Below are positions 24,201-64,000 of a stretch of DNA of 64,000 nucleotides, piece after piece. This stretch comes from Ginglymostoma cirratum. Lineage: Eukaryota. Both the position numbers and the translations under genes were made by a program. The stretch is taken from contig JAHRHZ010000222.1 of the NCBI GenBank assembly GCA_024137785.1, positions 29,726,838-29,790,837 of the forward strand, in the 5' to 3' direction. A model generated the notes under the pieces. That model was not told the origin of the DNA. It saw only the letters and a list, made by a program, of their open reading frames with translations, and did not search any database. Within the stretch, counting starts at the first letter, position 1; each line of letters starts with the position of its first letter.

Positions 24201-24639
24201 GAATGCATCTACTTTCTCACCGTTGATGCCCTGAAGAGTAGTTTTTGACTAATGTCCTTTAAGACCAAGGAGTTACTGGCTACTGTTGAGTCAACATGTT
24301 ACTATCAAGGCCTGTGATTTGTTCAGAAGCTCCTAAGCTAATTGGCATTGATTTTGGCAGGCATTTTTTAATTATGGGTGGCAGGTTAATCAAACCCTAG
24401 CACGTCTGTTCACGCATGGAGGGTAGAATATTTTCCTCCCTTGACATGGCGTGAAGGGGAAATTATTGGATGAGTTGGCCCTGGAGAGATCTCCCCTTCT
24501 TATCACCTCGCCAACTGAATTATGGATGAGAAGGTTCACCTCTCTATCTACCACTAATTAAAGCCGTCTTGGCCAATTCACGTAAGTACTGTGGCTGCAA
24601 GAGCAAGTCGGAGGCTAGGAGTCCTGTAAGTAACTTGCC

Positions 24640-25170
24640 TCGTGATTCTATAAAGCTTGCTCACCATCTACAAGGCACAAGTCAGGAGATGATGGAATAC
24701 TCTTCACTTTCTAGATGAGTGCAGCTTCAACAACAGTTGAGAAGCTTGACACTGTCCATGGCAAAAGAGCACTCTTGACCGGCACCACATGCTCAAAAAA
24801 AATCAGCCTGTTGACTACCAGTGTTCAATAGCAGTAGCAGCAAGGTGTACACATTTACAAGATGCACTGAAGAAATTCTCCAAAACTGTTTATGCAACAT
24901 GTTCCAAACCCACAACCACTCTAATCTAGAAGGACACGGATGCAGATACACCACCATCTGTGAGTTCCCCTCCAAGCCGCACACAAAACTAAAATATGTT
25001 GGAAATATATTGCATTCCTTCAGTGTCCTCTGGAACTCTCTCCCTAATGGCACTGTGGATCCGCCCACAGCAAATGGACTGCATTGGTTCAAGAAAGCAA
25101 CTCATGACCACCTTGGGATGGGTAACGAATGCTGGCCAAGCTCGCAACGCCACAGCCCATGAATAAAGGC
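24640..25170 (+). mobile_element. L2/CR1-group LINE 3' fragment
   Basis: ctcaccatctacaaggcacaagtcagg = LTIYKAQVR, then atggaatac (MEY) and aagcttgacactgtccat; collinear with 32800-33540. Confidence 0.75.
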
Positions 25171-25622: not shown

Positions 25623-25805
25623 AAAGTTTTGGTAAAGATCTGTAGCTCGGGTTCGTGAATGAGGTTTTTGACTTGCTCGCCGAGCTGGCTTGTTTCTGTT
25701 CAGACATTTCGTCTTCATCGGAGGCTCCACTGATGATGTCACCTGGCATGCTGTTGAAACATCTGAACAAAAACAAGCCAGCTCGGCGAGCAAGTCAACA
25801 ACCTC
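25623..25805. mobile_element. Palindromic Penelope-related mini-element, second family
   Basis: Inverted arms 25659-25710 and 25756-25807 (48/52 matches by eye); ATGATTCTTATTT direct repeats at 25610-25622 and 25806-25818. Confidence 0.75.
25728..25765 (+). ncRNA. Minimal type I hammerhead ribozyme motif (degenerate stem II)
   Basis: ca-CTGATGA(25730-25736)-T-gtcacctggcatgctgtt-GAAA(25756-25759)-CA-TC-tg. Confidence 0.55.
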
Positions 25806-26765: not shown

Positions 26766-26907
26766 ACAGTTCTGAATAAGGGTCACTGGACCCGAAACGT
26801 TAACTCTGCTTTCTCTCTACAGATGCTCCTAGACCTGCTACGTTTTTCCAGCAATTCCGGTTTATGTTTCTGATTTCTAGCACCTGCAGTTCTTGCATTT
26901 TCTTTTC
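26766..26907 (+). mobile_element. Single-arm Penelope-related mini-element that starts at its hammerhead
   Basis: Matches the right arm of the 51371 element plus tail; flanks are TTATGATTGGTG (26754-26765) and TTATGATCGGTG (26908-26919). Confidence 0.75.
26768..26805 (+). ncRNA. Minimal type I hammerhead motif with a G8-to-U core mutation
   Basis: AGTT-CTGAATA-A-GGGTC-ACTG-GACCC-GAAA-CG-TT-AACT: 4-bp stem I, 5-bp stem II, palindromic ACGT stem III. Confidence 0.7.
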
Positions 26908-27790: not shown

Positions 27791-28004
27791 TTTGAAGAGG
27801 CTAAAATGACTGAATTTGAAATGTACTACTTTAAAGTTACAAACAGCTGGGTTTTTTTTACAGCAATAATGTAATTTTAGCTCCTGCACGTGGTGCAAAT
27901 TAATGTTCAAATCTGGAAATTGATTTTTAAAAGCTACAGCTGCTTACAGTAAAATACTGTGGATGCAGGAAATCTAATTCACAAACTAAAAATGCTAGAG
28001 ATCT

Positions 28005-28090
28005 AGAACAGAAAATGCAGGAGAAACTCTGTATTGTCTGAGGAGAGTGAAACAGAGTTAACATTTGAGTCTGACGTGAAGAGTCTTGTG
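28005..28090 (-). mobile_element. Decayed Penelope-related terminal arm
   Basis: acagaaaatgcaggagaaactc...gagagtgaaacagagttaacatttgagtc aligns with 51415-51490. Confidence 0.5.
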
Positions 28091-31000
28091 GAGTTTCTCC
28101 ACCACCTTCTGCTTTTAATAGGTTTGGAGGGATTTTCAAAATGCTGATAATCACATTTACTGATTTCTTGATAATCACATTTGTTACATATTCAAAGAGC
28201 AAGATGCCAAATTGAATTGAAAAGATCACTTAAACTCTCCGTTCTCAAGCTATTGCTCATTCTAAAACAAAATAATTAAATCTTCAAATCATTTTTTTGT
28301 GGGAGTGGGTTCTAAACCAGGCAGCACAGCCTCCTTGATACTATGTGTAGGTCAAGTGCAGTGACAGATCTAACAGCAAGCCTTCCAGTTTTATCTTTGT
28401 AGCAAATACTGTTAAATAGTAGAGATCAAGTTGCAGGTGAGCAAGACCAATCTTTGAGTCCCCAGTTCACGGATGGAAACAAAAATTGACAGAGCAGCTC
28501 CAAAAGTAACATTTAAACAGTTTATTAATGTCATATGTGTTGTATGCTTTCTATTAATTTGGAAAATCAAAGCAGCATTGTATATAATGTCTTTTTGTTT
28601 CAGTGAATTTTTGGAATTGAGCCGATTGCAAGGCGATGTGCCCAATGATGGGATATTGGAACTGAGTTAGTTTCCTGTGGCAGACACAGTAATATGATAC
28701 CTGAGGTGGCAACGTCCGCATAATCTCAGGTCACTAATACTGTTTGACCAGTGCCTGATAGGATTTGAGGGGTTAGCCACCCTATGTACATTACTGAGAC
28801 ATTGGAAAATAGCTATAACTGAACCACGTTTCTTTATGTCAGTTACATTAAGACCTTATAGATTCTTAATAAGCAGGAGATCTATTATTGGACAAGTTGC
28901 AGACTTTCCTGGACTGTTGACCTGGGGTTAATTATAGTAGAACACTTGGGTCTCCCTACATTTTGTCAGTCTAACTCTCTCTGAGTTTAGTTAAGTTAGA
29001 ATATACACTCAGCACACTCCATATACTCCAAAATGAGTGTACACTCCATAGTAGCCAAATAGAAACTTCGACTTGCAAGGCATATTCAGTCATTTGACTG
29101 GGATATAGTTATCCATAGAGGTTGGTTTTTTCAAATCGCAGACCAAGCTGATCCCCCAATATTTTGTAGGTAATTCTTTTGCTAATAACTTAGTATGAAG
29201 GTGCCCTGCTCCTTAAAGATGTATTAACCTTGCAGTGAGAGATCACGTGTGTGTGGTTTGTACACCGTGACAATTAGATGTACAGCACTAGTTTTTGCAC
29301 TGTGATTGAAAGGAATTGGTGTCAGAAGTTTGATTTTGTATTTTGTAGACAGAGGTTTGCTTTTCAAATGACAAAAAATTCTGAAAATATTCAAATGTCT
29401 TGAAAGATCAAAATATAATCTTTAGGATTTATACGCTAATCTTGTAGACTGACAGTTACTTCTTAATAATCGTGTTGATTATGGTTTGATAAACGTGCCA
29501 TGATTTTTTTCACAAGCAATGGTCTTTCATTGCGACTATTAATCATATAGAGCATGCTTGCTGTTACTATCCATCAGAAAAGCTGCTACAAAATTATGTA
29601 AAACCACCCATAAAAAACATAAGTAGAAATATACTTTTATTTTACAACATGATATCAAGGCAACAAACTTATCTTGGATTTCAGACAATGGTTGTATACC
29701 ACTTATGCAATTGGCCATCACCTGAACCTATTAAAGATTGTTGTGTCTAATTACTCCTCCAATATGTTCATTTTTTTTAATGTATCTGCGTGGAATTTAC
29801 AAGATGAATATTGATGTTTAACCAGCCCAGACCATTAGCAAGTACAAAAGAATTAAATGTGTACAGCTTGAATTTTAGATTTTCCTCTTACAAAAACAGA
29901 TTATTGTGCATCATAATTAGATTGGATTTTCAAGAGCTTACACAGTTCTTTTGTCTCTTCAGCCAATATGTTGATGATCAGAAAGTAATATACATATCAT
30001 GTATAGTGCATTTTAAACTTCACAGTGAAATAAGCACCAGGTTGAGACATGTTATTTACTGGAAATGTTACATTCAATAAATTCTAAAGCCAAAAGATGA
30101 GGCTGGAAATTGGGGGGGGATAAAAGTTCTGTTCCCTTGAGCAGCATAGACAGTGGTGAGAAAATTGGGTAAATACGGTGAGATTGAAAAGAGTGAATTT
30201 TGACATTCAGCAAGTATTTCTGATTTTGACCATAAAGTTTCAATGGTGACTCACTATTAAGAGGCAGCAACCTTATTTCCCTCATTTGCATTTTATTATT
30301 AGCCCAACTCACCTCATTTCTCTGCTACTTGCAACTCTACTGTCCTTCCTTGAGAAACTAGATAGCACCAATTCACACCATGAAAGCCAGACTAGTTATC
30401 TGGTGCCTGCAGCTCACCACTTGCTTGCCCAGCCCCTTATCTAACTCTGTCTTCACTACAACGTCCTTGCAGCCTCCGTGAACACAATATCCTTCTCCAC
30501 TCTTTGACTGTGCAAGTTAGCATCAGCAATTTACCAGCCTCATCACATCATCATGCTTGCTCTCAGACTAACTCTCTCATCTCTTCAAATGTTCAAGAAT
30601 TTGGAGCTCAGGGATACTTATGATTTGCATGTTTCTGCCAGGGCACTTTTTGTGCAGACAGATACATCTCACACATCTACACAGGATGTAGCTTCATTTC
30701 TTAGTACTCACTCAGCTTCCACTAACTTAGGGGGTGCCACACTCTGTGGCTTGCACTGCATTTTAGTACAGACGGAGAGGCAGGCAGCTTGTTGTAGTGG
30801 GGAGCACTGAACAGTCAAAGGGCGTGGACGTATTGCTATATGTCAATGTCACATCTCCCACCATGTACCGCCAACTACGTGGCAAACACAATGCATGTAC
30901 TTCATTGCAAATGGACATGAGTGGAAGTGAAAGGAGACCAGCCGTTAGCGGGATGAAGGGGGATTACAATCGATTAGCAGCTACGGCCACAGTCAGTCAA

Positions 31001-31186
31001 GGGACTCATCTGATTTTAGTCCAGGGAGTTGGTCACAGTTACTTAGTCTTCCCAGAGCCTGGATTTCCCATGTCTTTGCAGTTTGGGCATTGGACCATGG
31101 TAATTCCTGCAGGTCATGTACAAACAATCTAGGGATTACAGGTACATCAGATGGGGTGCTTTGGAGACATCAGTATTTTCAGGTAA

Positions 31187-31850
31187 GGCCCAAGTGGAGG
31201 CATGGGGACCGCTTTGCGGAATACCTACGCTTGGTTCGCAACAAACAACTGCACCTCCCAGTCGCGAACCATTTCAACTCGCCCTCCCACTCCTTAGACG
31301 ACATATCCATCCTGGGCCTCCTGCAGTGCCCCAACGATGCTACTCGAAGGTTGCAAGAACAGCGCCTCATATTTCGCTTGGGAACCCTGCAGCCCAATGG
31401 TATCGATGTGGAAATCACAAGCTTCAAAATCTCCCCTCCCCCAACCATATTCCCAAAACCAGCCCAGCTTGTCCCCACCTCCCTAACCTGAACTTCCTCC
31501 CACCTATCCCCTCCTCCCACCTCAAGCCCCACCCTCATCTCCTACCTAGAAGCCTCATCCCGCCCCCTTGACCTGTCCGTCCTCCCTGGACTGACCTATC
31601 CCCTCCCTAACTCCCCACCTACACTCACCTTTACTGGCTCCACCCGCACCTCTTCGACTTGTCTGTCTCCTCTCCACCTATCTTCTCCTCTATCCATCTT
31701 CTATCCGCCTCCCCCTTTCTCCCTATTTATTTCAGAACCCCCTTCCCCTCCCCCATTTCTGAAGAAGGGTCTAGACCCGAAATGTCAGCTTTCCTGCTCC
31801 TCTGATGCTGCTTGGCCTGCTGTGTTCATCCAGCTCTACACCTTGTTATC
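31187..31850 (+). mobile_element. 5'-truncated Penelope-like retroelement (C-terminal part of GIY-YIG endonuclease, C/T-rich 3' region, hammerhead)
   Basis: ORF text GDRFAEYLRLVRNKQLHLPVANHFNSPSHSLDDISILGLLQC...RRLQEQRLIFRLGTLQPNGID; diverged TSD TCAGTATTTTCAGGTAA (31170-31186) / TCAGTATCTTCATGTAA (31851-31867). Confidence 0.88.
31757..31788 (+). ncRNA. Minimal type I hammerhead motif, catalytic core intact
   Basis: tt-CTGAAGA(31759-31765)-A-GGGT-CTAG-ACCC-GAAA(31779-31782)-TG-TC-ag; predicted cleavage after C31786; stem I is weak. Confidence 0.7.
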
Positions 31851-32789
31851 TCAGTATCTTCATGTAAACCCACTTTAAGTATCTACACATTGCAGGCTGT
31901 ACTAACTGTTAGGGGAAAAAGCAGCAGTCAGTGATATAAGGTACTAACATCACACGATACGAAGGTCAGGTAGATTTAGTCAGCATGTGATATTCGAATG
32001 TCATGCATTTAAGTCTCCCATGATAGGCAGCAATTTGTACAGAATCTTGAGGCACCTCCTTTCGACCCTTAAATCATCGGTTGGCCTTCAACATTTTAGA
32101 GTTTGCAAAGTCTGCTAACTTGCCGTGAAATGTTTGAACGTCCTGTAGGGTACTGTTGAACCTGAGGGAGGCAGTGCTCTGTGCAGTTTCTCTCTGCAGA
32201 CCACTGAGGCAGAGTGAACGTGCGAACTGCTTATTGTGGTTTAGGGTGGGAGATGTGCAATGTGCTCCCCTGAAAAGCTGATAGATAGAATGAACCTTTT
32301 GCTGCAAAAATGTGTGAAATCAACACTGGATTCAAATTCTCACTAACAAGTGTGAAATGTGTGTGCAGGGCAGGCCCTAGCACAATCACTGCATATTGTG
32401 TTTAGCTTCAGTGTTGTCTACATCAAGTGTAGCATTAAGCACTAAAATTCAGGAATCGCAATGTTTGAGGTTATCTGCGGTCAAGAAGTCTGTTGCTTCT
32501 GAGAAATAAATAATGTTTGGCTATTATAACTTCCTTCACCCTTGATGTCTGAATAGCCTGCTCATCTCTAACATGGATGCAACTTAACCAGGTCCGCCCG
32601 CAACAAAGAGAACATATTAAGAATGTAAGTATGTATAGATTTTCAAAAATACAAGGTTATTTACAACTTTGTGTTACCCATTCCAACTATGTACCTTCAG
32701 ACGTGAAGGTTACCATTGATTAGAAATTGAACTGAACAAGTCTTTTAGAATACAATGGCTACAACAGGAGGTCAGATATTAGGAATCCT

Positions 32790-33540
32790 GCAGCAAGCAA
32801 CTCACTTCCTGACTCCTCAAAGCCTGTCCACCATCATCAAGGTACAAATCAGGATTATGATGGAATACTCACCACCTGATTGGAAAAAGATGTACAGGTT
32901 AAGTGGAGTGGCCATGCTAAATTGCCCATAGTGTCCAGGGATGTTTAGGCTAGGTGGTTTAGACATGGGAAATGCAGGGGTAGGGGAATGGGTCTGGGTG
33001 GGATGCTCTTCGGAGGAGCGGTGTGGACTTGTTGGGCCGATTGGCCCGTTTCCACACTGTAGGGATTCTCTGATTCTTTGAAGTGCAACATAAGCAACAC
33101 TCAAGAAACTTGACACCATCCAGGATCAAGTAGCCCACTTGATTAGCACCAGAACCACAAACATTCAACCAAAGATCAGAGAAGCAGATTGTACCATCAA
33201 CAAGATACACTGCAGAAATTCATCAAGGTTTCTTAGACAGAACCTTCCAAATCCATGACCATTATCATCTAGAAGGACAAGGGCAGCAATACCTGGGAGC
33301 ACCAACATTTCAAGATCCCCTCCAAGCCACCTGCCATCCTGACTTGGTGATATATGTTCATTCCTTCACTGTCACTGGGTCAAAAACCTGGTATTTCCTC
33401 CCTAACAGCATTGTGGGTGTATCAGGTGGACTGCAGTCGTTCAAGAAGGCAGCTCACCACCGCCTTCTCAAAGGCATCTAGGGATGGGCAATAAATGCTG
33501 GCCAGCCAGTGATGTTTGCATCCTCTAAATGAGTTTAAAA
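32790..33540 (+). mobile_element. L2/CR1-group LINE 3' fragment interrupted by a SINE
   Basis: Reads THFLTPQSLSTIIKVQIRIMMEYSP, resumes after ~33080 with TLKKLDTIQDQVAHLI, and ends at gggatgggcaataaatgctggcc...aaatgagtttaaaa. Confidence 0.8.
32888..33078 (+). mobile_element. HE1/V-SINE-like SINE, 5'-truncated
   Basis: V-domain-like aggttaagtggagtggccatgctaaattgcccatagtgt and tail ggtgtggacttgttgggccga..gtttccacactgtagggattctctgattct. Confidence 0.75.
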
Positions 33541-35570: not shown

Positions 35571-35883
35571 GATAACAAGGTGTAGAGCTGGATGAACACA
35601 GCAGGCCAAGCAGCATCAGAGGAGCAGGAAAGCTTTTTCTCGTTTCGGGCCTAGACCCTTCATCAGAAATGGGGGAGGGGAAGAGGGTTCTGAAATAAAT
35701 AGGGAGAGAGGGGGAGGCGGATAGAAGATGGATAGAGGAGAAGATAGGTGGAGAGGAGACAGACAAGTCAAAGAGGCGGGGATGGAGCCAGTAAAGGTGA
35801 GTGTAGATGGGGAGGTAGGGAGGATGGACAGGTCAAGGGGGCGGGATGAGGTTAGTAGGTAGGAGATGAGGGTGCGGCTTGAG
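35571..35883 (-). mobile_element. Penelope-like 3' fragment, same young family as 31187-31850
   Basis: Near-identical reverse complement of ~31520-31850, with a short internal deletion. Confidence 0.88.
35639..35668 (-). ncRNA. Minimal hammerhead motif with disrupted cleavage triplet
   Basis: The minus strand reads tt-CTGATGA-A-GGGT-CTAG-GCCC-GAAA-CG-agaaaaagc where the sister copy has ..G-TC-agc. Confidence 0.65.
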
Positions 35884-38629: not shown

Positions 38630-39330
38630 GTATTCATTCATAGAATATAGGTGTTGCTGGCAAGGCTAGTATTTACTGACCTTGCGAAGATTGTGCCTTC
38701 TTGAATTGCTGCAGTCCATGTGATTATAGGTACACCCCACATTGTCATTAGAGAGGGACTTCCAGGATTTTGACCCAACAACATTGAAGAATTGGCAATA
38801 TGTTTCCAAGTCAGGGTGATGTGTGGCTTAGAGGGGAGCTTGCGGCTGATGGTGTTCCTCTGTATCACTGTTCTTGCCTTCCAGGTAGTCAACGTCACAT
38901 GTTTTGAAGGTGATGTCTAAGAACCCTTTGTGAGTTGTTGCAGTGCATTTTATAGACGATACACACTGCTGTTATTGTGCATTAGTCTTGTAGAGAGTGA
39001 ATGTTGAAGATGATAGGTGGGGTAGCAATCAAGCAGATTGTCTTGTCCTGTATGGCATTCAGCTTCTCAAGTGTTGTTGGAGCTGCAATCATCCAGGCAA
39101 GCTAAGAGTATTTAATTACATTCCTGACTTGGGCTTTGGAGATGATAGGTACTGAAGAATTAGGAGATGAGTTGCTCGCTACAAGGTTCCAAGCCTCTGA
39201 TCTACTCGTGTAGACACAGTATTTTTATAACTAGTCCAAAACAGCTTCTGTAACTCCTAGGATATTAGTTGTGGGGTTTCAGTGATAGCAATGCCATTGA
39301 ATGCAAAGGGGTAATGGTTGGATTATTTCT
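38630..39330 (-). mobile_element. L2/CR1-group LINE 3' fragment
   Basis: Collinear with 10430-11120 and reverse-complementary to 32800-33540. Confidence 0.8.
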
Positions 39331-46075: not shown

Positions 46076-47009
46076 CACATAAGTTGCTGGAAAAGCTGAG
46101 GAGGTCTGGCAGCATCTGTGAAGAAAAACTCAGTAAACATTTCGGGCCTGGTGACTCTCCCTGAGAACTGATGGTAGCTGGGAAAACGTTAGTTTGTATG
46201 CAGAAAATAGGGAGAAGGATGGGGTAGGGAGTAAACGATAGGATAGAGGCCAAAGAGAGAGAAGAAAGAGCAGTTAAATAGACAACAGAGTTGATAACCA
46301 TCAGGCTGGGAGGGTGAATAGTTGTTAATGGGGACTGTTAGTGACAAACAACAGGGGGTGTGTAATGGCAGGCTATGTGATAACAGGGCCTGGTGTATGA
46401 GGTAGGGGGCTCGGACATGGGAGAGTTTAGGCCCTAAAATTATTGAACTCGGTATTGAGTCCAGAGGGCTGCAGGGTCCCCAAGTGGAAAATGAGGTGTT
46501 GTTCTTCCAGCTTGCGTTGAGCTTCTCTGGAAGACTGCAGCAAGCCTGAGACAGAGATGCTGGCCAGGGACAGGGTGTTGAGTTAAAGTGGCAGGCAACA
46601 GGTAGTTCAGGGTCTTTCTTGCAGGCAGAATGTAGATGTTCTGCGAAGCGGTTACCCACTCTACGCTTCATTTCCTCAATGTAGAGAAGACCACATTGTA
46701 AGCAACAAATGCAGTAGACTAGATTCTGGGAAGTGCAGGTGAAGTGTTGCTTCGCCTGGAAGGTATGTTTGGGCCCTTGGATACTGGGGAGGGAGGAGGT
46801 AAATGGGCAGGTGTTGCACCTTCGCCGGTTACAGGGGAAGGTGCTGTAGGGCTGTGGTGGGATGTTGGGGATGAAGGAAGAATGGACCAGGGTGTCCTGG
46901 AGAGAACAGTCCACACTTTTTCTTCACAAATACTGCCAGACCTGCCGAGCTTTTCCAGCAACTTCTGTTTTTGTTCCTGATTTACAGGATCCATAGTTCT
47001 TTCGGTTTT
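46076..47009 (-). mobile_element. 5'-truncated Penelope-like element with GIY-YIG region and inverted terminal segment
   Basis: ORF 46189-46914 contains CNRRRCNTC, TCTSQNLVYCICCLQCGLLYIEEMKRRVGNRFAEH and LPVACHFN; 46915-46965 is an inverted copy of 46078-46130; perfect 14-bp TSD CATAAATGAGCAAA at 46062-46075 and 47010-47023. Confidence 0.9.
46131..46170 (-). ncRNA. Degenerate hammerhead motif
   Basis: The minus strand reads cagtt-CTCAGGG-A-GAGTC-ACCA-GGCCC-GAAA-TG-TT-tactg, with two core substitutions relative to CTGAGGA. Confidence 0.5.
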
Positions 47010-50920: not shown

Positions 50921-51472
50921 ACAAGTCGCGGTTGATGTACAGACTAACTGTGATCTAATCAAATGGCAGTGCATGCTTTAGGGGTTGAATGGCATACTTC
51001 CTATTTCAATATTCCTATGCAGTATCATTCCAAGTTTTGAATTTTGCAAAATAAAAACTGCACGCTCAATATTTGCTTTATTCTGTTATTTTAAAGAAAC
51101 ACCATTACAACACACGTGATAAATTAATTTAGAATACACCTTTCGTGATCATTGCATTTTTTAACGTTATTCATGGGATGTAGGCATTGCTGGCCAGGCC
51201 AGCATTTATTGCCCATCCCTAACTGCAGAAGGCAGTTTAATGGTCTGCCACATTGCTGCGGATCTGGAGTCACACGTAGACTAGACCAGATAGGGAGGGT
51301 ATATTTTCTTTCTTAAAGGGCATTAGTGAACCAGATAGGTTTTTGTGATAATCAACAATGGTTATGTGGTAAATAAAAACTGAAAGAATGCGGATGCTGT
51401 AAATCGGGAACAAAAACAAAGTTGCTGAAAAAGCTCAGCAGGTCTGGTAGCATCTGTGAAGGAAAATACAGA

Positions 51473-51508
51473 GTTAACATTTCGGGTCCGGTGACCCTTC
51501 CTCAGAGC
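51473..51508 (-). ncRNA. Minimal type I hammerhead motif, core and stem II intact
   Basis: The minus strand reads gct-CTGAGGA-A-GGGTC-ACCG-GACCC-GAAA-TG-TT-aac. Confidence 0.7.
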
Positions 51509-51509
51509 T

Positions 51510-51545
51510 GTTCTGAGGAAACGTCACCGGACCCGAAACGTTAAC
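51510..51545 (+). ncRNA. Minimal type I hammerhead motif, base of stem II mutated
   Basis: gtt-CTGAGGA(51513-51519)-A-ACGTC-ACCG-GACCC-GAAA(51535-51538)-CG-TT-aac. Confidence 0.65.
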
Positions 51546-54500
51546 TTTGTATTTTCCTTCACAGATGCTGCCAGACTTGCTGAGCTTTTCCAGCAATGGT
51601 TATGTGGTCACCATTAAGCTAGCCTTTTTTAATTCCAGATTTTTTATTGAATTCAAATTTTACCTTCTGTCATATTTGTGAATCTCTATAATTCACAAAA
51701 TCAGAAATACTTGGTTAGGACTAAAAATTTTATTTCTGCAGTCTTTTCCATTTTTGTCTAACTTTGCAATTGTGTATCTGTGACATGGCATAATTAAGGG
51801 CCTAAATACTTCATAAGTATGCATTGGTTTCCATTGATCTGTGAAGGGCTCAGCAATGGTTTAATATTGTTATAGATGTGGTTTTCATTGCAGTGTTAAG
51901 TAAATAGTTATTTAGAAGGTTGGAAATACAGATAGGATAGTGAATGATAAATTATTACAATCTGGTTAATTTCCATCTTTCCTCTTCCAAACTAGAGTGC
52001 AGTTTCATGGGTGACTCCAACAGTGATTGTTGGATGATGATAAAGAGCTGGAGGTTTTACCAATTTTACCAGCTAAACCAGCAGGGCTGTAGCCCACTGC
52101 AGAGCATTTTCCTTCTTCATGGCCAAGATCAGGTAACTCCATACAGAATGAGCTAGGATCTTCTTGGTTTATGTCTTAATCACTCATAAGCCAAACTTTC
52201 TCCTTCCATACTTAACTTCTTCGATTAAAACAAACCTAATAACTGGGGGAGCTTAGCCACATCCACCGAGTACTGCTGCATAGAGTAGCTACCAGCTTCT
52301 GTGAAAACTATTGAGCTAGTCATCAAGACTAGTGATCAGCAAAGCTGGTGCTGACGTTAGATTACCTTTTGGCTCTTTACTAATGTAAGCTTGTTATTAG
52401 AATCATAAAACTGGTTAGTTATGTTAGTTTTTATCAATTATGATCTAGGTAGCTACTTTTGCAGCCTGGATAATTTGACAACAATATTTACTTTCTAATG
52501 TTTAAAAAATGTAAAAGTGTACTGATCAAAACTGATCCAGCCATCAATGTTACTTAGTCCTGAATCATTTCCAAATCTTTGGGTTGGCACCATTTATATC
52601 AAGAATGGGAGATTGAGCAAAAATGGACAATTCAATCAAATTTTAATTTTTGTCATTTTTGTTTTTGAAATCAATTGCTTTGCGATTAAGAATGAAGTAC
52701 GTTGAAGTCTGAGACTGTTTTCTGCTGTTATCTTTCAATACAAGTATAGCTGCACCTATGGCACCACTGGGTGCACCAGAGGTGGAACTAGTAAAAAGTA
52801 TTATCCTATGAATATGATGTTGGCATGGAAATAGGCAAGATTGGAGACATTCAATACTGGAATTTCATAATGGAGAAAAAAGACTCGGATATCTTGGTAA
52901 TCAAATTTCAACCAACCCACAGACTGATATTTGTCATAGAATACTGTCTGTTAACTCCTGTGACCTAAACCTAGGTCAATCGAATGTAAGTTTCGTCTAT
53001 GTTGGTAGCAGGTGGTATTTCATAAATGAAGTTAGTTCGACAGTTTTAATGGAGTTCTCAATTGGACGCATCTCTATCAAAGTGTCCAAGATTCAACACA
53101 AATTGCCATTAAACTGGTAACTCCTTTGAGAGAGGTTAAAAGGTTGGTGGAGTGAGAACAGGGAAAGCATGATATGGTATGTCAGGAAAGTACAGTATAG
53201 AGGTTGGTGTTAAGACACATTGTTGAGTTAAAGTGTAAATGTCACACAAAGGGCAGACTTTTTTCAATCCTCATAGGAAATGGGACTAGAGAATAGATGG
53301 TCCACAGTTTCCGGGCAATAACTGTTGCACTGGTTTGTCATCATCACCTCACCTCCAGGCTATTTCAGAATATGCCAGTGGGAAAAGGTTGTGCATCACA
53401 AGTGACAGGAAGCCAATTAAGTATATTAATGGGCCCATTATGGCCTCCCTTTGAATTTTACTGTTGGAACTTGGAGCCCCCTGAATCTAGCCCGAAGATG
53501 GCGGTGACTGCCTAGCATCGGACTGAGAGGGGCTAAGGGAGAGCAGTGCACCACTTGGTTTGTTAAATATTCCCTCCTCCCTCCCACCACACCCACAACA
53601 ACTTAACAGCTGTACTTGAGTTCAGAGTGCACTTTGTGGTGGTGCTCGCTTGTCTCTCTCATTCGTTATTGGTAGCACTCACCTCTGATGAGCTGCTAAA
53701 TAGTCAGTGTTGGAGGCCTTCCTGTTCCCATGGAAACCCACCTACTGTTCTTAACTGGACAGTGTACATGCAGACCTTGGCCACAAATTGTCTGTACCTT
53801 CAAGAATCACAGTGACAGACTCCATAATGCTCCTGATATAAGAGTCCCAAACCAAGAGCAAAACCTCTGCCAAAGTATGATCTGATCAATTATTTGGATA
53901 TTACCTCTGTTGTGATAATGAAATATTAGTGTTTGAGGTAGAAACATCTGTCACCGGTGGTGAATGTGCCAGTGAAATTGTCATTGGCTTTCCTGTACCA
54001 CAGATAGTTATGGAAATGAGAAATGATCCATGAGGTAAAGGAATAGTTGACCTTGTCATGCTGAGGGTAACAAAACTAAAATTGCCTCAGCATCCATTAG
54101 AACAGAATTAAGCTCAGCTTTGATGCCACAGCGATTGAATTGTCTGTCAATACTCACATTCACAGTTGAATAATGACCACTTGGGCAAAATCTTGGAAAG
54201 CAACTGACTGCACCTCAGAGAGGGGTCAATAGATTTAGAAAAAGACTGGCTTGGGAAATAAAGGTTGGCAGAAAAGGGGAAAGATGCCCTCCGTTTGTCA
54301 TTATTGTTGTTACAGAATGCAATACATTTTTTCAAAGATAGCATGTAGATTTCCATGTTAGGTGGTCCATTTATTGTGTTCTTTCTGGAGGCAGAATGGC
54401 TACAACTGAGCCACGTACCTACGGTAGTTTTAATAGGGATTCTTTTCCTTTCAGTGTGCAGGATTTGAGGAAGAAAATGAAATGATAGCTTTGTCAAGTG

Positions 54501-61470: not shown

Positions 61471-64000
61471 TGCCAAATCTCTCTGCAAGTTTAATCAAGA
61501 AGAATTGCTGCTTGAGCAAGATATTGGAGGGTACCTGGTGGTTCTGGAATTATATTCCATCAAACCAGTAAAATCCAGAAAGGGGCTGGTGAGAAAACTA
61601 CCAGTCAACACAGAACTAGAATTGAAACTTAAGAATGTAGGGCACTAAGAACTGATGTGAAATCGGGTACTACTGGGTTCATGTTAAAGGTGAATTTTCT
61701 GCTAAACATATTTCATCACTAGTAATGAGTAAATTGCAACAGAAAAGATTTTATGTAGCTTTCGATCACATTATTAGAACTAGCTACATATGATGTAGAC
61801 TCAAATTCATTACGCTATTAGTGTTTGCAAAACAATATGGGAATTTTTAATCAACATCAGTTGCCATTAAAGCAAATAAACAGAAGCTTCAACTTGTCTT
61901 GAACTGGACTGAGGTGGTGGAAGACTTGCACAATTGAAACCTGGCATAAGGAGATGAGACACAGGCATGGGCTTGTGCTTAAACAGTCAGATATGTCAAA
62001 CTCAGATCATTTTTTTACCTCACCAGGTTTAAATTGTGCAAGCTTGCCACACAACCTCAGTCAACCTTAGGACAAAGTAGCATTGCTAAAGTATTGCAGG
62101 TCTCTTCCCTTCTATCGCTAATAAGCACCAGGAAAGGGAGAGAAATTCTTCTAGCGTGAGATCTTCTGTGACAATCCTGTTTCATTATCAAAACCCGGTG
62201 TGAGTTAAAAGCCTTTAAGGCATGTTAGTAACATTTATTCAGTTTATTTTATGAAAGTTAGTTTCTAGAAGGAAACAGAAAAACAAATTAGGCTGTACTT
62301 TCTATCATTAGATATGGTCCGTAGTTTTATTTTCCACACTTAGGACGAAAATGTTATGGGTTATGTAAAAATATGCTAACTCAATAATCATACTAATTTT
62401 TAACCATGACAATGGTATTCAGAATTTCTGTATCCTAGCAACCTAGTGATTAGTTTGTCAATCGTGAAAAGCAGAATTCTACTGAGTAAAATATTTGATT
62501 CCATGCTTGATTCAACAAAATGATTTAAACCATTAGTGGGAGTCGAGTCACTCCGTTTTGTTCTTCAAAATCAGTGAATTACTTTGTGCTGAGATAGGGC
62601 AAACAACTAAACCCTGCTCATACCAAGTCAGGGTATTCGGTACACTCTGCAAGGGAAGGACAGTGTGAATAATATTTGACAGAGATTAACAAATGATTTT
62701 TTAGTAAAGAAACTACTTACTGACACAATGGGAAAGGAGCATTCTGAGTATAAAGGAGAGTTGTTTCTCTTATGGGTTGTGAATATTTCTAAAGATGTGT
62801 TTACCATATTGAAGAGCATAACAGCTTTTGTTCAATTTATGAAACATAAAGGTGAATTTTATTTTGTGATGACATCAGAATTTCTGAAAAATCACTTATT
62901 ACTTACATTTTGCTTTGATTTGTAAATTAAAAATATGTAATTTATTTCTTGCAGGTTTTACATAATGAGGAAAATAAATGTGTAATTACTTGAACCAGGA
63001 AGTGGTCGCACAGTAATCAAAGGGTTATATTTTTGTGTATAAGTGACACCATATTTGGGCTCCACTGAAATCCATTACAAGGCTACAGTCATGTCTTTAG
63101 TGTTCACCAGATTGCTCTGCATTATAAGGCCTTCACCACAACTAAAGCATTTGCCAAAGCCTGCATTACATTTCTGTCTGTGTTGTTTTATTGTCTTATT
63201 GGCCACGCGTCCCACCATTATAAAGCTTTTACATGTAGATTTCCAGGCGGTTTCCAGGCTGTTTACTTTCAGAGATTTTTCCTGAAAATTTTGAGAGGTT
63301 TTATAGTAGTGCCTGCTCGGAACCACTTGACTACTTTGGCCTCAAATAGTGAACGCTTGGCATTATCACATTTGTAGCACAAAAAGTAATATGTCACTGT
63401 ATATCTTTTGCTAAATCAGAATTCATAAAGCTTTTACAAACCTCCTGTGATGGTGTAATTATTAATTACATATGTTTCATTCATAATTCTAAAGAAGAAG
63501 ACAAATGGCAGAAAAAAATTGAAGTGTGCAGTAATTTATTAGGCAATAAAATTGATGTATTCACCCAGCCTTCAAAATTCATCTGTTATGAAAAGTTTAG
63601 GGCCAAAGCCCAGCAAGGGGTTATGGGACATCCTCCCCTTGCGTACTGTATAATTTGAATAAACAAAAACAGAATTTGATTTTTGTGATGATACAGTGCC
63701 TTTTTGTTTTAAACTGAGGATAGGCAAATGGACACCATATTAATAATTCCTATTACAACAAAATAGATAATTCACACTTGGAAGTAAGATCACATTCAAT
63801 GTAAATGGGCATGGCTTGCCTCCAGATGTATAATGTGCAGATTCTTTAAGTTACCCTGAATAATTAGTGTCAACATTTTTAAAATATTCATAAAACCAAA
63901 GGTAATGCTGACTTTAGTGTCGAACCCCTCCTCCAACATGTGAGTAAAGCATCTCCGTTTCCTAGTCCCACACAGACTGTTTTATGGCCTCTGAAGGTAA

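What the first reader, a model, noticed from the sequence alone, without database searches (positions are those of the whole stretch)
51356..51608. Non-coding palindromic mini-element with two back-to-back hammerhead ribozymes on opposite strands
Seen: a ~220-bp insertion between perfect 15-bp direct repeats, made of two 85-bp inverted arms plus a ~50-nt one-sided extension. At the centre each strand carries CUGAGGA-A-stem II-GAAA-(C/U)G-UU. The arms match the terminal segment of the GIY-YIG element at 46076-47009. Established: Penelope-like elements carry minimal type I hammerheads with a palindromic stem III that are thought to work as dimers (Cervera and De la Pena 2014), and they often have inverted ends. 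Inference: this may be a self-propagating non-autonomous hairpin element, MITE-like in shape but retro-derived, that yields a ribozyme from either strand. The 85-bp fold-back would compete with ribozyme folding and could act as a switch or a dsRNA source.
Basis: partly seen in the sequence, partly recalled or inferred. Interest (0 to 1): 0.85.

Follow-up and report, generated by a model that had tools for sequence, protein, structure and literature searches.

The report
Head-to-head Penelope retrotransposon end fragment
This 223-base palindrome is two short, decayed copies of the end of a Penelope-type retrotransposon inserted head to head, a known layout, and its main interest is that the join falls at a spot that looks like the element's transcription start.

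Summary
In detail: a 223-bp insert between perfect 15-bp direct repeats, 87-bp arms around a 1-nt centre (8 mismatches), a one-sided 51-54-nt tail, and a minimal hammerhead motif on each strand. It is the end of a Neptune-type Penelope-like element (PLE). Inverted ends with a one-sided tail, and opposite-strand hammerhead pairs, are already described for PLEs. The window holds four more such inverted insertions, three with other junctions, one of an unrelated family. The two-ribozyme or switch reading is not supported: both motifs are damaged, and any transcript through the element buries its ribozyme in its own antisense arm (52-55 kcal/mol). What is not ordinary: 5 of 12 arm ends of related copies stop within -5..+2 of one A at the ribozyme's 5' edge, which has an Initiator match and a weak TATA-like box at -31 in two subfamilies. 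Best reading: both target strands primed reverse transcription, both cDNAs ran off the RNA's 5' end and were joined. A self-copying palindrome is not excluded; no host genome could be searched.

The parts
51356..51370 (.). Left target-site duplication, 15 bp
   Evidence: identical to 51594-51608
51371..51421 (-). One-sided PLE 'tail', 51-54 nt; 3' end of the tail-bearing arm
   Evidence: same segment ends copies at 46917-47009, 26766-26907, 13873-14018; tail described
51422..51508 (-). Left arm (tail-bearing copy of the PLE end, +2 to +88 from the landmark A)
51472..51509 (-). Minimal type I hammerhead motif; core and 5-bp stem II intact, stem I 3 of 4 pairs, dimer palindrome weakened; predicted cut between 51476 and 51475
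51509..51509 (.). Single central base; corresponds to the A that begins stem I and to the Initiator-like +1 of the longer copy (46169)
51510..51546 (+). Minimal type I hammerhead motif; core intact, two basal pairs of stem II lost (51521-51522, including the G10.1 position); predicted cut after 51542
   Evidence: G10.1-C11.1 called highly conserved
51510..51593 (+). Right arm (tail-less copy); the first 3 bases of the right duplication continue the arm sequence (microhomology)
51594..51608 (.). Right target-site duplication, 15 bp
46076..47009 (-). Longer 5'-truncated copy of the same family: endonuclease fragment with CX4CxxC linker, 3' region, decayed hammerhead (46132-46169), tail-less end; short inverted tail-bearing arm 46917-47009; 14-bp duplication
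46193..46200 (-). TATA-like octamer (6 of 8) starting exactly 31 nt before the Initiator-like A at 46169 (7 of 7)
   Evidence: consensus motifs recalled
13805..14018 (.). Second, older head-to-head palindrome of a related subfamily, both arms ending at the ribozyme's 5' edge; 13-bp duplication (13792-13804, 14019-14031)
26766..26907 (+). Solo tail-bearing copy that starts 2 nt before the landmark A; 12-bp duplication with 1 mismatch
27952..28116 (.). Old inverted insertion of the same group with a different, asymmetric junction (about +16 and +65); flanking duplication uncertain
25623..25805 (.). Short head-to-head insertion of an unrelated PLE-like family: 52-nt arms, 36-nt one-sided tail, one complete but decayed hammerhead (+25730), perfect 13-bp duplication, asymmetric junction
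31182..31850 (+). 5'-truncated copy of a second subfamily (endonuclease end, hammerhead at 31759); TATA-like 6 of 8 at -31 and Initiator-like 7 of 7 at the matching A; a sister copy lies at 35571-35883 (-)

Best explanation
A dead-on-arrival insertion made de novo by an autonomous Neptune-type Penelope-like retrotransposon. (1) The endonuclease cut both target strands 15 bp apart (shown: duplication). (2) Each 3' end primed reverse transcription near the RNA's tail region, one at the far end of the tail and one about 54 nt further in by 3-nt microhomology (inferred from anatomy; both-strand extension and two internal start sites bounding the tail are shown in vitro for a Poseidon PLE). (3) Both cDNAs passed through the uncleaved ribozyme and stopped at its 5' edge, most likely because the template was a transcript that starts there (inferred). 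(4) The two cDNA ends were joined with 1-3 nt of microhomology, giving an odd palindrome with a 1-nt centre (inferred). The copy has since decayed neutrally. Any RNA read through it forms an 87-bp hairpin that silences its own ribozyme. Confidence by step: PLE-derived inverted insertion 0.97; made de novo rather than copied from a palindromic master 0.7; two primed cDNAs 0.65; landmark is a transcription start 0.5.
For: Homology to both ends of the endonuclease-bearing copy. [quoted passage not shown] All 5 inverted insertions seen in the window carry one tail, and 3 of 5 have other junctions, one in an unrelated family. In the 46-kb copy the tail is on the short arm (93 nt against about 840), which fold-back of either strand cannot make. 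Target sequence continues the arm at the tail-less end in 3 of 3 copies examined (3, about 6 of 7, and 2 nt). 5 of 12 arm ends lie at -5..+2 of one A. That A has YYANWYY 7 of 7 and TATAWAWR 6 of 8 at exactly -31 in both subfamilies whose upstream DNA is present, against 1-2% of positions in the element bodies. In vitro PLE data: both strands extended, uncleaved RNA is the main template. 4 of 8 arm mismatches in the ribozyme, 3.4 expected.
Against: Only 8 loci of this group in 64 kb; without the finding itself 3 of 10 arms and 2 of 7 loci hit the landmark, crude P 0.005-0.26 for loci depending on the span assumed; the unrelated 25.6-kb element, found later and not in that count, does not fit it. 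TATA matches are weak (18% of window positions have one at -33..-28) and no DPE was found. Three ends extend 1-5 nt upstream of the A. The solo copy's extra base at -2 matches the palindrome's continuation rather than the long copy, as a truncated copy of a palindromic master would. In Drosophila Penelope the same landmark is an intron's 3' end and the start site lies further upstream; acceptor-like sequence is present here too. The in vitro paper studied another clade and, in the parts read, does not propose double priming for inverted ends.
Confidence: 0.55

Rival explanations
1. A self-propagating palindromic non-autonomous element: a hairpin RNA is copied whole by the PLE enzyme, and solo halves arise when the cDNA folds back just past the centre.
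For: Two palindromes in 64 kb centre on the same landmark. The solo copy's two extra 5' bases match the palindrome's continuation. The tail stays single-stranded on the minus-strand RNA. Non-autonomous PLE derivatives exist.
Against: The two palindromes differ in subfamily (59-67% between them over 70 nt), core spacing (7 against 13 nt) and tail-less end (about +85 against +69-73). The element lacks the upstream TATA-like box. The arm region is locked in a -141 to -146 kcal/mol duplex. Inverted forms with other junctions are as common.
Confidence: 0.15
2. The replicating unit is the roughly 140-nt half (ribozyme to tail), a SINE-like module with an internal promoter; solos are its one-primer products and palindromes its two-primer products.
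For: A duplication-flanked solo of just this extent exists. RNA started at the centre folds stem II with probability about 1.0 on the tail strand. Drosophila Penelope has an internal promoter.
Against: No DPE match at +28..+32 in 3 of 3 copies tested; the TATA-like box lies outside the unit. Only one solo. No subfamily tree could be built.
Confidence: 0.1
3. One cDNA folds back on the small self-complementary patch at the ribozyme's 5' edge and copies itself (self-priming, as proposed for rotifer PLEs), then joins the second target strand.
For: Head-to-head junction palindromes were read as self-priming in PMC3846280. The extra 5 nt at the centre of the 13.8-kb copy are the reverse complement of its own core. 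It explains a one-sided tail in the finding.
Against: The finding's centre is 1 nt, too tight for a hairpin loop, and lies 2-3 nt from the centre that patch would give. It cannot make the 46-kb copy.
Confidence: 0.1
4. Ordinary random 5' truncation of two cDNAs; the shared landmark is coincidence in a small sample.
For: 7 of 12 arm ends lie elsewhere; leaving out the finding, P is 0.26 for loci if truncations fall within 100 nt.
Against: 5 of 12 ends within 7 nt; P 0.004 or less with the finding included; coincidence with Initiator and TATA-like spacing in two subfamilies.
Confidence: 0.09
5. An assembly or fold-back read artefact.
For: Palindromes can arise as library chimeras (general knowledge).
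Against: Arms differ at 8 of 87 pairs with changes on both sides, a perfect 15-bp duplication flanks the insert, and older copies share the layout.
Confidence: 0.01

Closest known systems
Inverted, 5'-truncated insertions of endonuclease-bearing Penelope-like elements with a one-sided tail (Craig et al. 2021, PMC8557442; Arkhipova et al. 2013, PMC3846280; passages read)
   Same: Head-to-head inverted ends, tail on one side only, target duplication, palindrome at the junction, TATA- and Initiator-like motifs in the pLTR.
   Different: Here nothing lies between the two ends; the tail is 51-54 nt rather than 30-40; both arms stop at the same base at the ribozyme's edge.
Minimal type I hammerheads of PLEs (Cervera and De la Pena 2014, PMC4209133; parts 1-2 of 4 and part 1 of 3 of the supplement read)
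   Same: Both core boxes, extra base between 9 and 10.1, short stem I, no stem III, palindromic 15.2-16.2; the paper reports pairs on opposite strands 100-700 bp apart.
   Different: The cores here are 7 nt apart and inside a near-perfect palindrome; both copies are damaged; 'milii', 'shark' and 'Leucoraja' were not found in the supplement's text.
Poseidon of Anolis (PAc) in vitro (Frangieh et al. 2024, PMC11167929; parts 1-2 of 4 read)
   Same: Ribozyme about 110-125 nt upstream of the tail end; two internal start sites bounding the tail; both strands extended; uncleaved RNA used.
   Different: Other clade; here the tail-less end varies (about +69 to +100) with target microhomology.
Non-LTR retrozymes (Cervera and De la Pena 2020, PMC7229834, passages; Li et al. 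2026, 10.64898/2026.07.22.740005, parts 1 and 3 of 5 and passages)
   Same: Short, non-coding, type I hammerhead, related to PLE pLTRs, reported in one cartilaginous fish.
   Different: Retrozymes are head-to-tail tandem repeats that yield circles; this is head-to-head, with one ribozyme per strand, so no unit can be cut out.
MITEs of DNA transposons (recalled)
   Same: Short, non-coding, inverted arms, target duplication.
   Different: Arms are copies of a retroelement end, unequal by a tail, with a 12-15-bp duplication that varies among copies.
LINE-1 twin priming (recalled)
   Same: Two primers on one target give an inversion with microhomology.
   Different: Twin priming gives non-overlapping pieces; here both arms copy the same sequence.

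Membership tests
Endonuclease-bearing Penelope-like element (fragment) | Homology to an element with RT and C-terminal GIY-YIG endonuclease | tested here: met
   80-85% to the ends of 46076-47009, whose fragment finds RT + GIY-YIG proteins, 8 of 10 long hits scanned. Pfam on the window's decayed fragment itself gave no family; no RT is present in the window.
Endonuclease-bearing Penelope-like element (fragment) | Inverted terminal copy with a tail on one end only | tested here: met
Endonuclease-bearing Penelope-like element (fragment) | Target-site duplication at an AT-rich site | tested here: met
   15 bp, 60% AT; 12-15 bp and 60-85% AT in 6 copies listed
Neptune/Nematis clade | CX2-5CxxC motif upstream of GIY-YIG | tested here: met
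   CX4CxxC in 46450-46923; criterion
Neptune/Nematis clade | Placement by RT phylogeny | not tested
   No RT in the window
Minimal type I hammerhead of PLEs | CUGANGA and GAAA..UH boxes with an extra base before stem II | tested here: met
   Both strands; 3 matches against 0.09 expected
Minimal type I hammerhead of PLEs | Stem II closed by G10.1-C11.1 | tested here: inconclusive
   Met on the minus strand (5 of 5 pairs), not met on the plus strand (3 of 5)
Minimal type I hammerhead of PLEs | Palindromic 15.2-16.2 segment for dimer pairing | tested here: inconclusive
   Perfect on plus (-3.5 kcal/mol self-duplex), wobble on minus (+0.8)
Minimal type I hammerhead of PLEs | Covariation in stems I and II | tested here: inconclusive
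   8 decayed arms: 77% of cells paired against 16-47% when slid, but 99 of 500 shuffles reach it
Minimal type I hammerhead of PLEs | Self-cleavage, as a dimer or with protein | not testable with these tools
   Needs an assay
Rfam hammerhead families | Covariance-model match | tested here: not met
   None at gathering score or at E<=10
Non-LTR retrozyme | Head-to-tail tandem units, each with a hammerhead on the same strand | tested here: not met
   One motif per strand, head to head
Non-LTR retrozyme | Circular RNA expression | not testable with these tools
   No RNA data
MITE of a DNA transposon | Equal terminal inverted repeats at both ends, fixed-length duplication, transposase partner | tested here: not met
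   One-sided tail, 12-15-bp duplications, retroelement partner
Self-propagating non-autonomous family | Many copies with the same junction and ends at different target sites | tested here: inconclusive
   2 symmetric palindromes in the window, with different spacing and subfamily; host genome not searchable

The most novel reading that the evidence does not exclude
The palindrome, or its 140-nt half, is a replicating non-coding retroelement of cartilaginous fish: a head-to-head pair of Pol II start sites whose divergent transcripts begin at the centre, escape the antisense arm, fold their hammerheads, and carry the tail that the PLE enzyme needs. It would be an inverted counterpart of tandem retrozymes, and its many copies would record the enzyme priming both target strands at once.
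Probability: 0.15. Interest if true: 0.7.

Novelty: new member of a known kind. Interest (0 to 1): 0.33.

Why it matters
How PLEs make their inverted ends and one-sided tails is called unresolved in the papers read. If these short palindromes are two run-off cDNAs joined head to head, a shark genome holds a large natural sample that maps the element's RNA 5' end and tests double priming by sequence alone (the central base should vary, the tail-less end should follow target microhomology). They would also be a steady source of 80-90-bp hairpins in host transcripts, and are easy to mislabel as MITEs or microRNA precursors. As a single locus it is a decayed repeat with no sign of function.

Tried and rejected
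Rfam: nothing at gathering score; only microRNA hairpin models below threshold at E<=10, which reflect the long stem. Search for copies elsewhere: two motif scans of bacterial and archaeal genomes, 0 matches each; plasmids and phages, no match. Viral and metagenome contigs and any fish genome stayed unchecked, as did Repbase and Dfam, which may already hold this family. Pfam on three window fragments: no significant family. Ribozyme cleavage as the cause of the junction: rejected, the cut site is at +34 and would remove the core. Stalling of RT at the ribozyme's structure: rejected as unlikely, it would stop at the 3' edge. Riboswitch-like behaviour: rejected, 52-55 kcal/mol gap. Selection against the intronic-strand ribozyme: no signal. 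Covariation: inconclusive. DPE: not found. In one search the ribozyme register for the 26-kb and 46-kb copies was off, and two start positions were off by one; searches use the right ones. Literature: ten searches listed no paper describing short symmetric PLE palindromes joined at the ribozyme's edge; this library lacks most subscription journals. Lunse et al. 2017 was not held and is known to me only through a review. PMC5753468 (passages) added nothing. A supplementary figure of PMC11167929 that maps genomic ends gave only labels, and the bioRxiv supplements were closed; both may bear on novelty.
Full report
Observation. The insert is real and as described. 51371-51593 lies between two identical 15-bp repeats. 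Counted outwards from T51509 there are 87 pairs with 8 mismatches, so the centre is a single base. The left side carries a further 51-54 nt with no partner. Either strand folds into one hairpin at -141 to -146 kcal/mol, with 0 of 200 shuffles as stable. A minimal-hammerhead pattern matches at +51513 and -51505, and once more at 31759; 0.09 matches are expected by chance. Rfam has no hammerhead match here; I infer that its models miss motifs without stem III. Independent changes on both arms and the duplication argue against an assembly artefact.

What it derives from. Arms and tail match both ends of the 46076-47009 element at 80-85%. That element carries the end of an endonuclease with a CX4CxxC linker, the mark of the Neptune and Nematis clades. 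[quoted passage not shown] The closest named hit is from the shark Heptranchias perlo, 63% identical, so the host is probably a cartilaginous fish (inference).

The layout is known. An inverted 5'-truncated copy and a tail on one end only are standard for PLE insertions (PMC8557442, passages). Head-to-head junction palindromes and TATA- and Initiator-like motifs in the terminal repeat are described for rotifer PLEs (PMC3846280, passages). Minimal hammerhead pairs on opposite strands 100-700 bp apart are reported in PMC4209133 (parts 1-2 of 4; supplement legend). The window shows the layout five times: the finding, 46076-47009, 13805-14018, 27952-28116, and 25623-25805, which belongs to an unrelated family and has its own perfect 13-bp duplication and 36-nt tail. 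All five have one tail. Three have asymmetric junctions.

The ribozymes. On the minus strand the core and stem II are intact, stem I has 3 of 4 pairs and the dimer palindrome is weakened (+0.8 against -3.5 kcal/mol). On the plus strand the two basal pairs of stem II are lost, including the pair that PMC4209133 calls highly conserved. Four of the 8 arm mismatches fall in the ribozyme, 3.4 expected, so no selection is visible. A transcript carries only one of the two motifs, and its antisense arm is made first. Forcing the ribozyme fold costs 52-55 kcal/mol and stem II probability is about 1e-17 to 1e-19, whereas an RNA started at the centre forms it with probability about 1.0 on the tail strand and 0.24 or less on the other. 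A switch or a double ribozyme is therefore not supported. Covariation across 8 decayed arms is inconclusive.

What is not ordinary. Number the A that begins stem I as +1; it is the palindrome's central position. Of 12 arm ends at 8 loci of this group, 5 stop at -5..+2: both arms of the finding, both arms of the older palindrome at 13.8 kb, and a duplication-flanked solo at 26766. The other 7 stop at about +16, +33, +44, +65, -213, -573 and -747. The ends were placed by hand from the alignments. Under a crude uniform null P is 0.004 or less with the finding and 0.005-0.26 for loci without it; the unrelated 25.6-kb element was found later, is not in this count and does not fit. Cleavage would give ends at +35 and structure would stall RT at the 3' edge, so neither explains +1 (inference). 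Where upstream DNA is present (46-kb copy; 31- and 35-kb copies of a second subfamily) this A has a full Initiator match and a 6-of-8 TATA-like octamer starting exactly at -31; 1-2% of positions in the element bodies, but 18% in the window, have such an octamer at -33..-28; no DPE was found (consensus motifs recalled). This is suggestive, not proof. In Drosophila Penelope the same landmark is the 3' end of an intron, and acceptor-like sequence precedes it here as well.

Most likely mechanism. For a Poseidon PLE in vitro, both target strands are cut and extended, reverse transcription starts at two internal sites that bound the tail, and uncleaved RNA is the main template (PMC11167929, parts 1-2 of 4). 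Applied here (inference): each end of the 15-bp staggered cut primed a cDNA, one from the tail's end and one about 54 nt further in, where the target continues the arm sequence for 3 nt; similar microhomology is seen in 3 of 3 tail-less ends examined. On a transcript that starts in the terminal repeat, both cDNAs run off at +1 and are joined. Two ends stopping at -1 could anneal by three bases with a central T-T mismatch, which gives just this 1-nt centre and predicts either base at the centre across copies. The 46-kb copy, with its tail on the 93-nt arm opposite an arm of about 840 nt, needs two separate priming events and cannot come from fold-back. I put 0.55 on the whole account.

Rivals. 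A palindromic master copy (0.15) fits the recurrence and the solo's extra base, but the two palindromes differ in subfamily, core spacing (7 against 13 nt) and tail-less end. A self-renewing 140-nt half (0.10) fits the solo but lacks promoter evidence inside the unit. Fold-back self-priming (0.10) fits the 13.8-kb centre but not the 1-nt centre. Chance (0.09) remains because the sample is small.

Context. An ATG exon at about 1797-1835 ending in a splice donor reads like exon 1 of a Teashirt gene (name recalled; a paper search for the peptide found nothing; sequence), and no ORF of 250 aa or more follows in the window. If so, the element is intronic and the plus-strand hairpin is made in pre-mRNA, a likely substrate for editing (inference, untested).

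Membership and novelty. It is a fragment of an endonuclease-bearing PLE with minimal hammerheads. It is not a retrozyme (no head-to-tail units) and not a DNA MITE. Ten literature searches listed no description of symmetric palindromes joined at the ribozyme's edge, but Repbase, Dfam, Lunse et al. 2017 and subscription journals were out of reach. No copies were found in bacterial and archaeal genomes, plasmids or phages; no fish genome, viral or metagenome collection was searched. Verdict: new member of a known kind, interest 0.33, with a testable lead on how PLEs form inverted ends.

Noticed in passing
window 25623-25805: Short head-to-head insertion of an unrelated PLE-like family with a perfect 13-bp duplication, 52-nt arms, 36-nt one-sided tail and one decayed hammerhead; no other copy in the window.
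   Followed up: yes
window 13805-14018: Second, older palindrome centred at the ribozyme's 5' edge; its 5 extra central bases are the reverse complement of its own core.
   Followed up: yes
window 1797-1835 (+): Short ATG exon followed by a splice donor, preceded by a GC-rich leader and GA repeats; resembles exon 1 of a Teashirt (TSHZ) gene by recall, unverified.
   Followed up: partly
window 51542-51567 (+): Branch-point-like motif right after the predicted cut site, pyrimidine tract and AG followed by ATG: a strong acceptor-like site in the sense of the presumed host gene, buried in the hairpin; on the tail arm the ATG opens a frame through the tail that may be the start of the element's ORF.
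   Followed up: partly
window 46168-46197 (-): Branch-point-like motif, pyrimidine tract and two AG dinucleotides just upstream of the ribozyme in the long copy; rival to the start-site reading.
   Followed up: partly
window 22294-22412 (-): Old solo fragment whose recognisable 5' end (about +33) lies near the predicted ribozyme cut site; no clear duplication.
   Followed up: partly
window 11160-11300: Inverted pair of 33-50-nt arms 44 nt apart; looks like a rearranged LINE fragment by recall.
   Followed up: no
window 61894-62075: About 50-bp imperfect terminal inverted repeats around 80 nt; may be a DNA-transposon MITE.
   Followed up: no
window 10581-11007, 24561-25166, 32749-33540, 38694-39247, 51159-51221: A second dispersed repeat family at 66-81% identity, probably LINE 3' parts; one piece ends about 135 bp left of the finding.
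   Followed up: no
window, several gaps (for example about 3250-3400, 17960-18150, 18420-18600): 516 N bases in all: a draft assembly.
   Followed up: no
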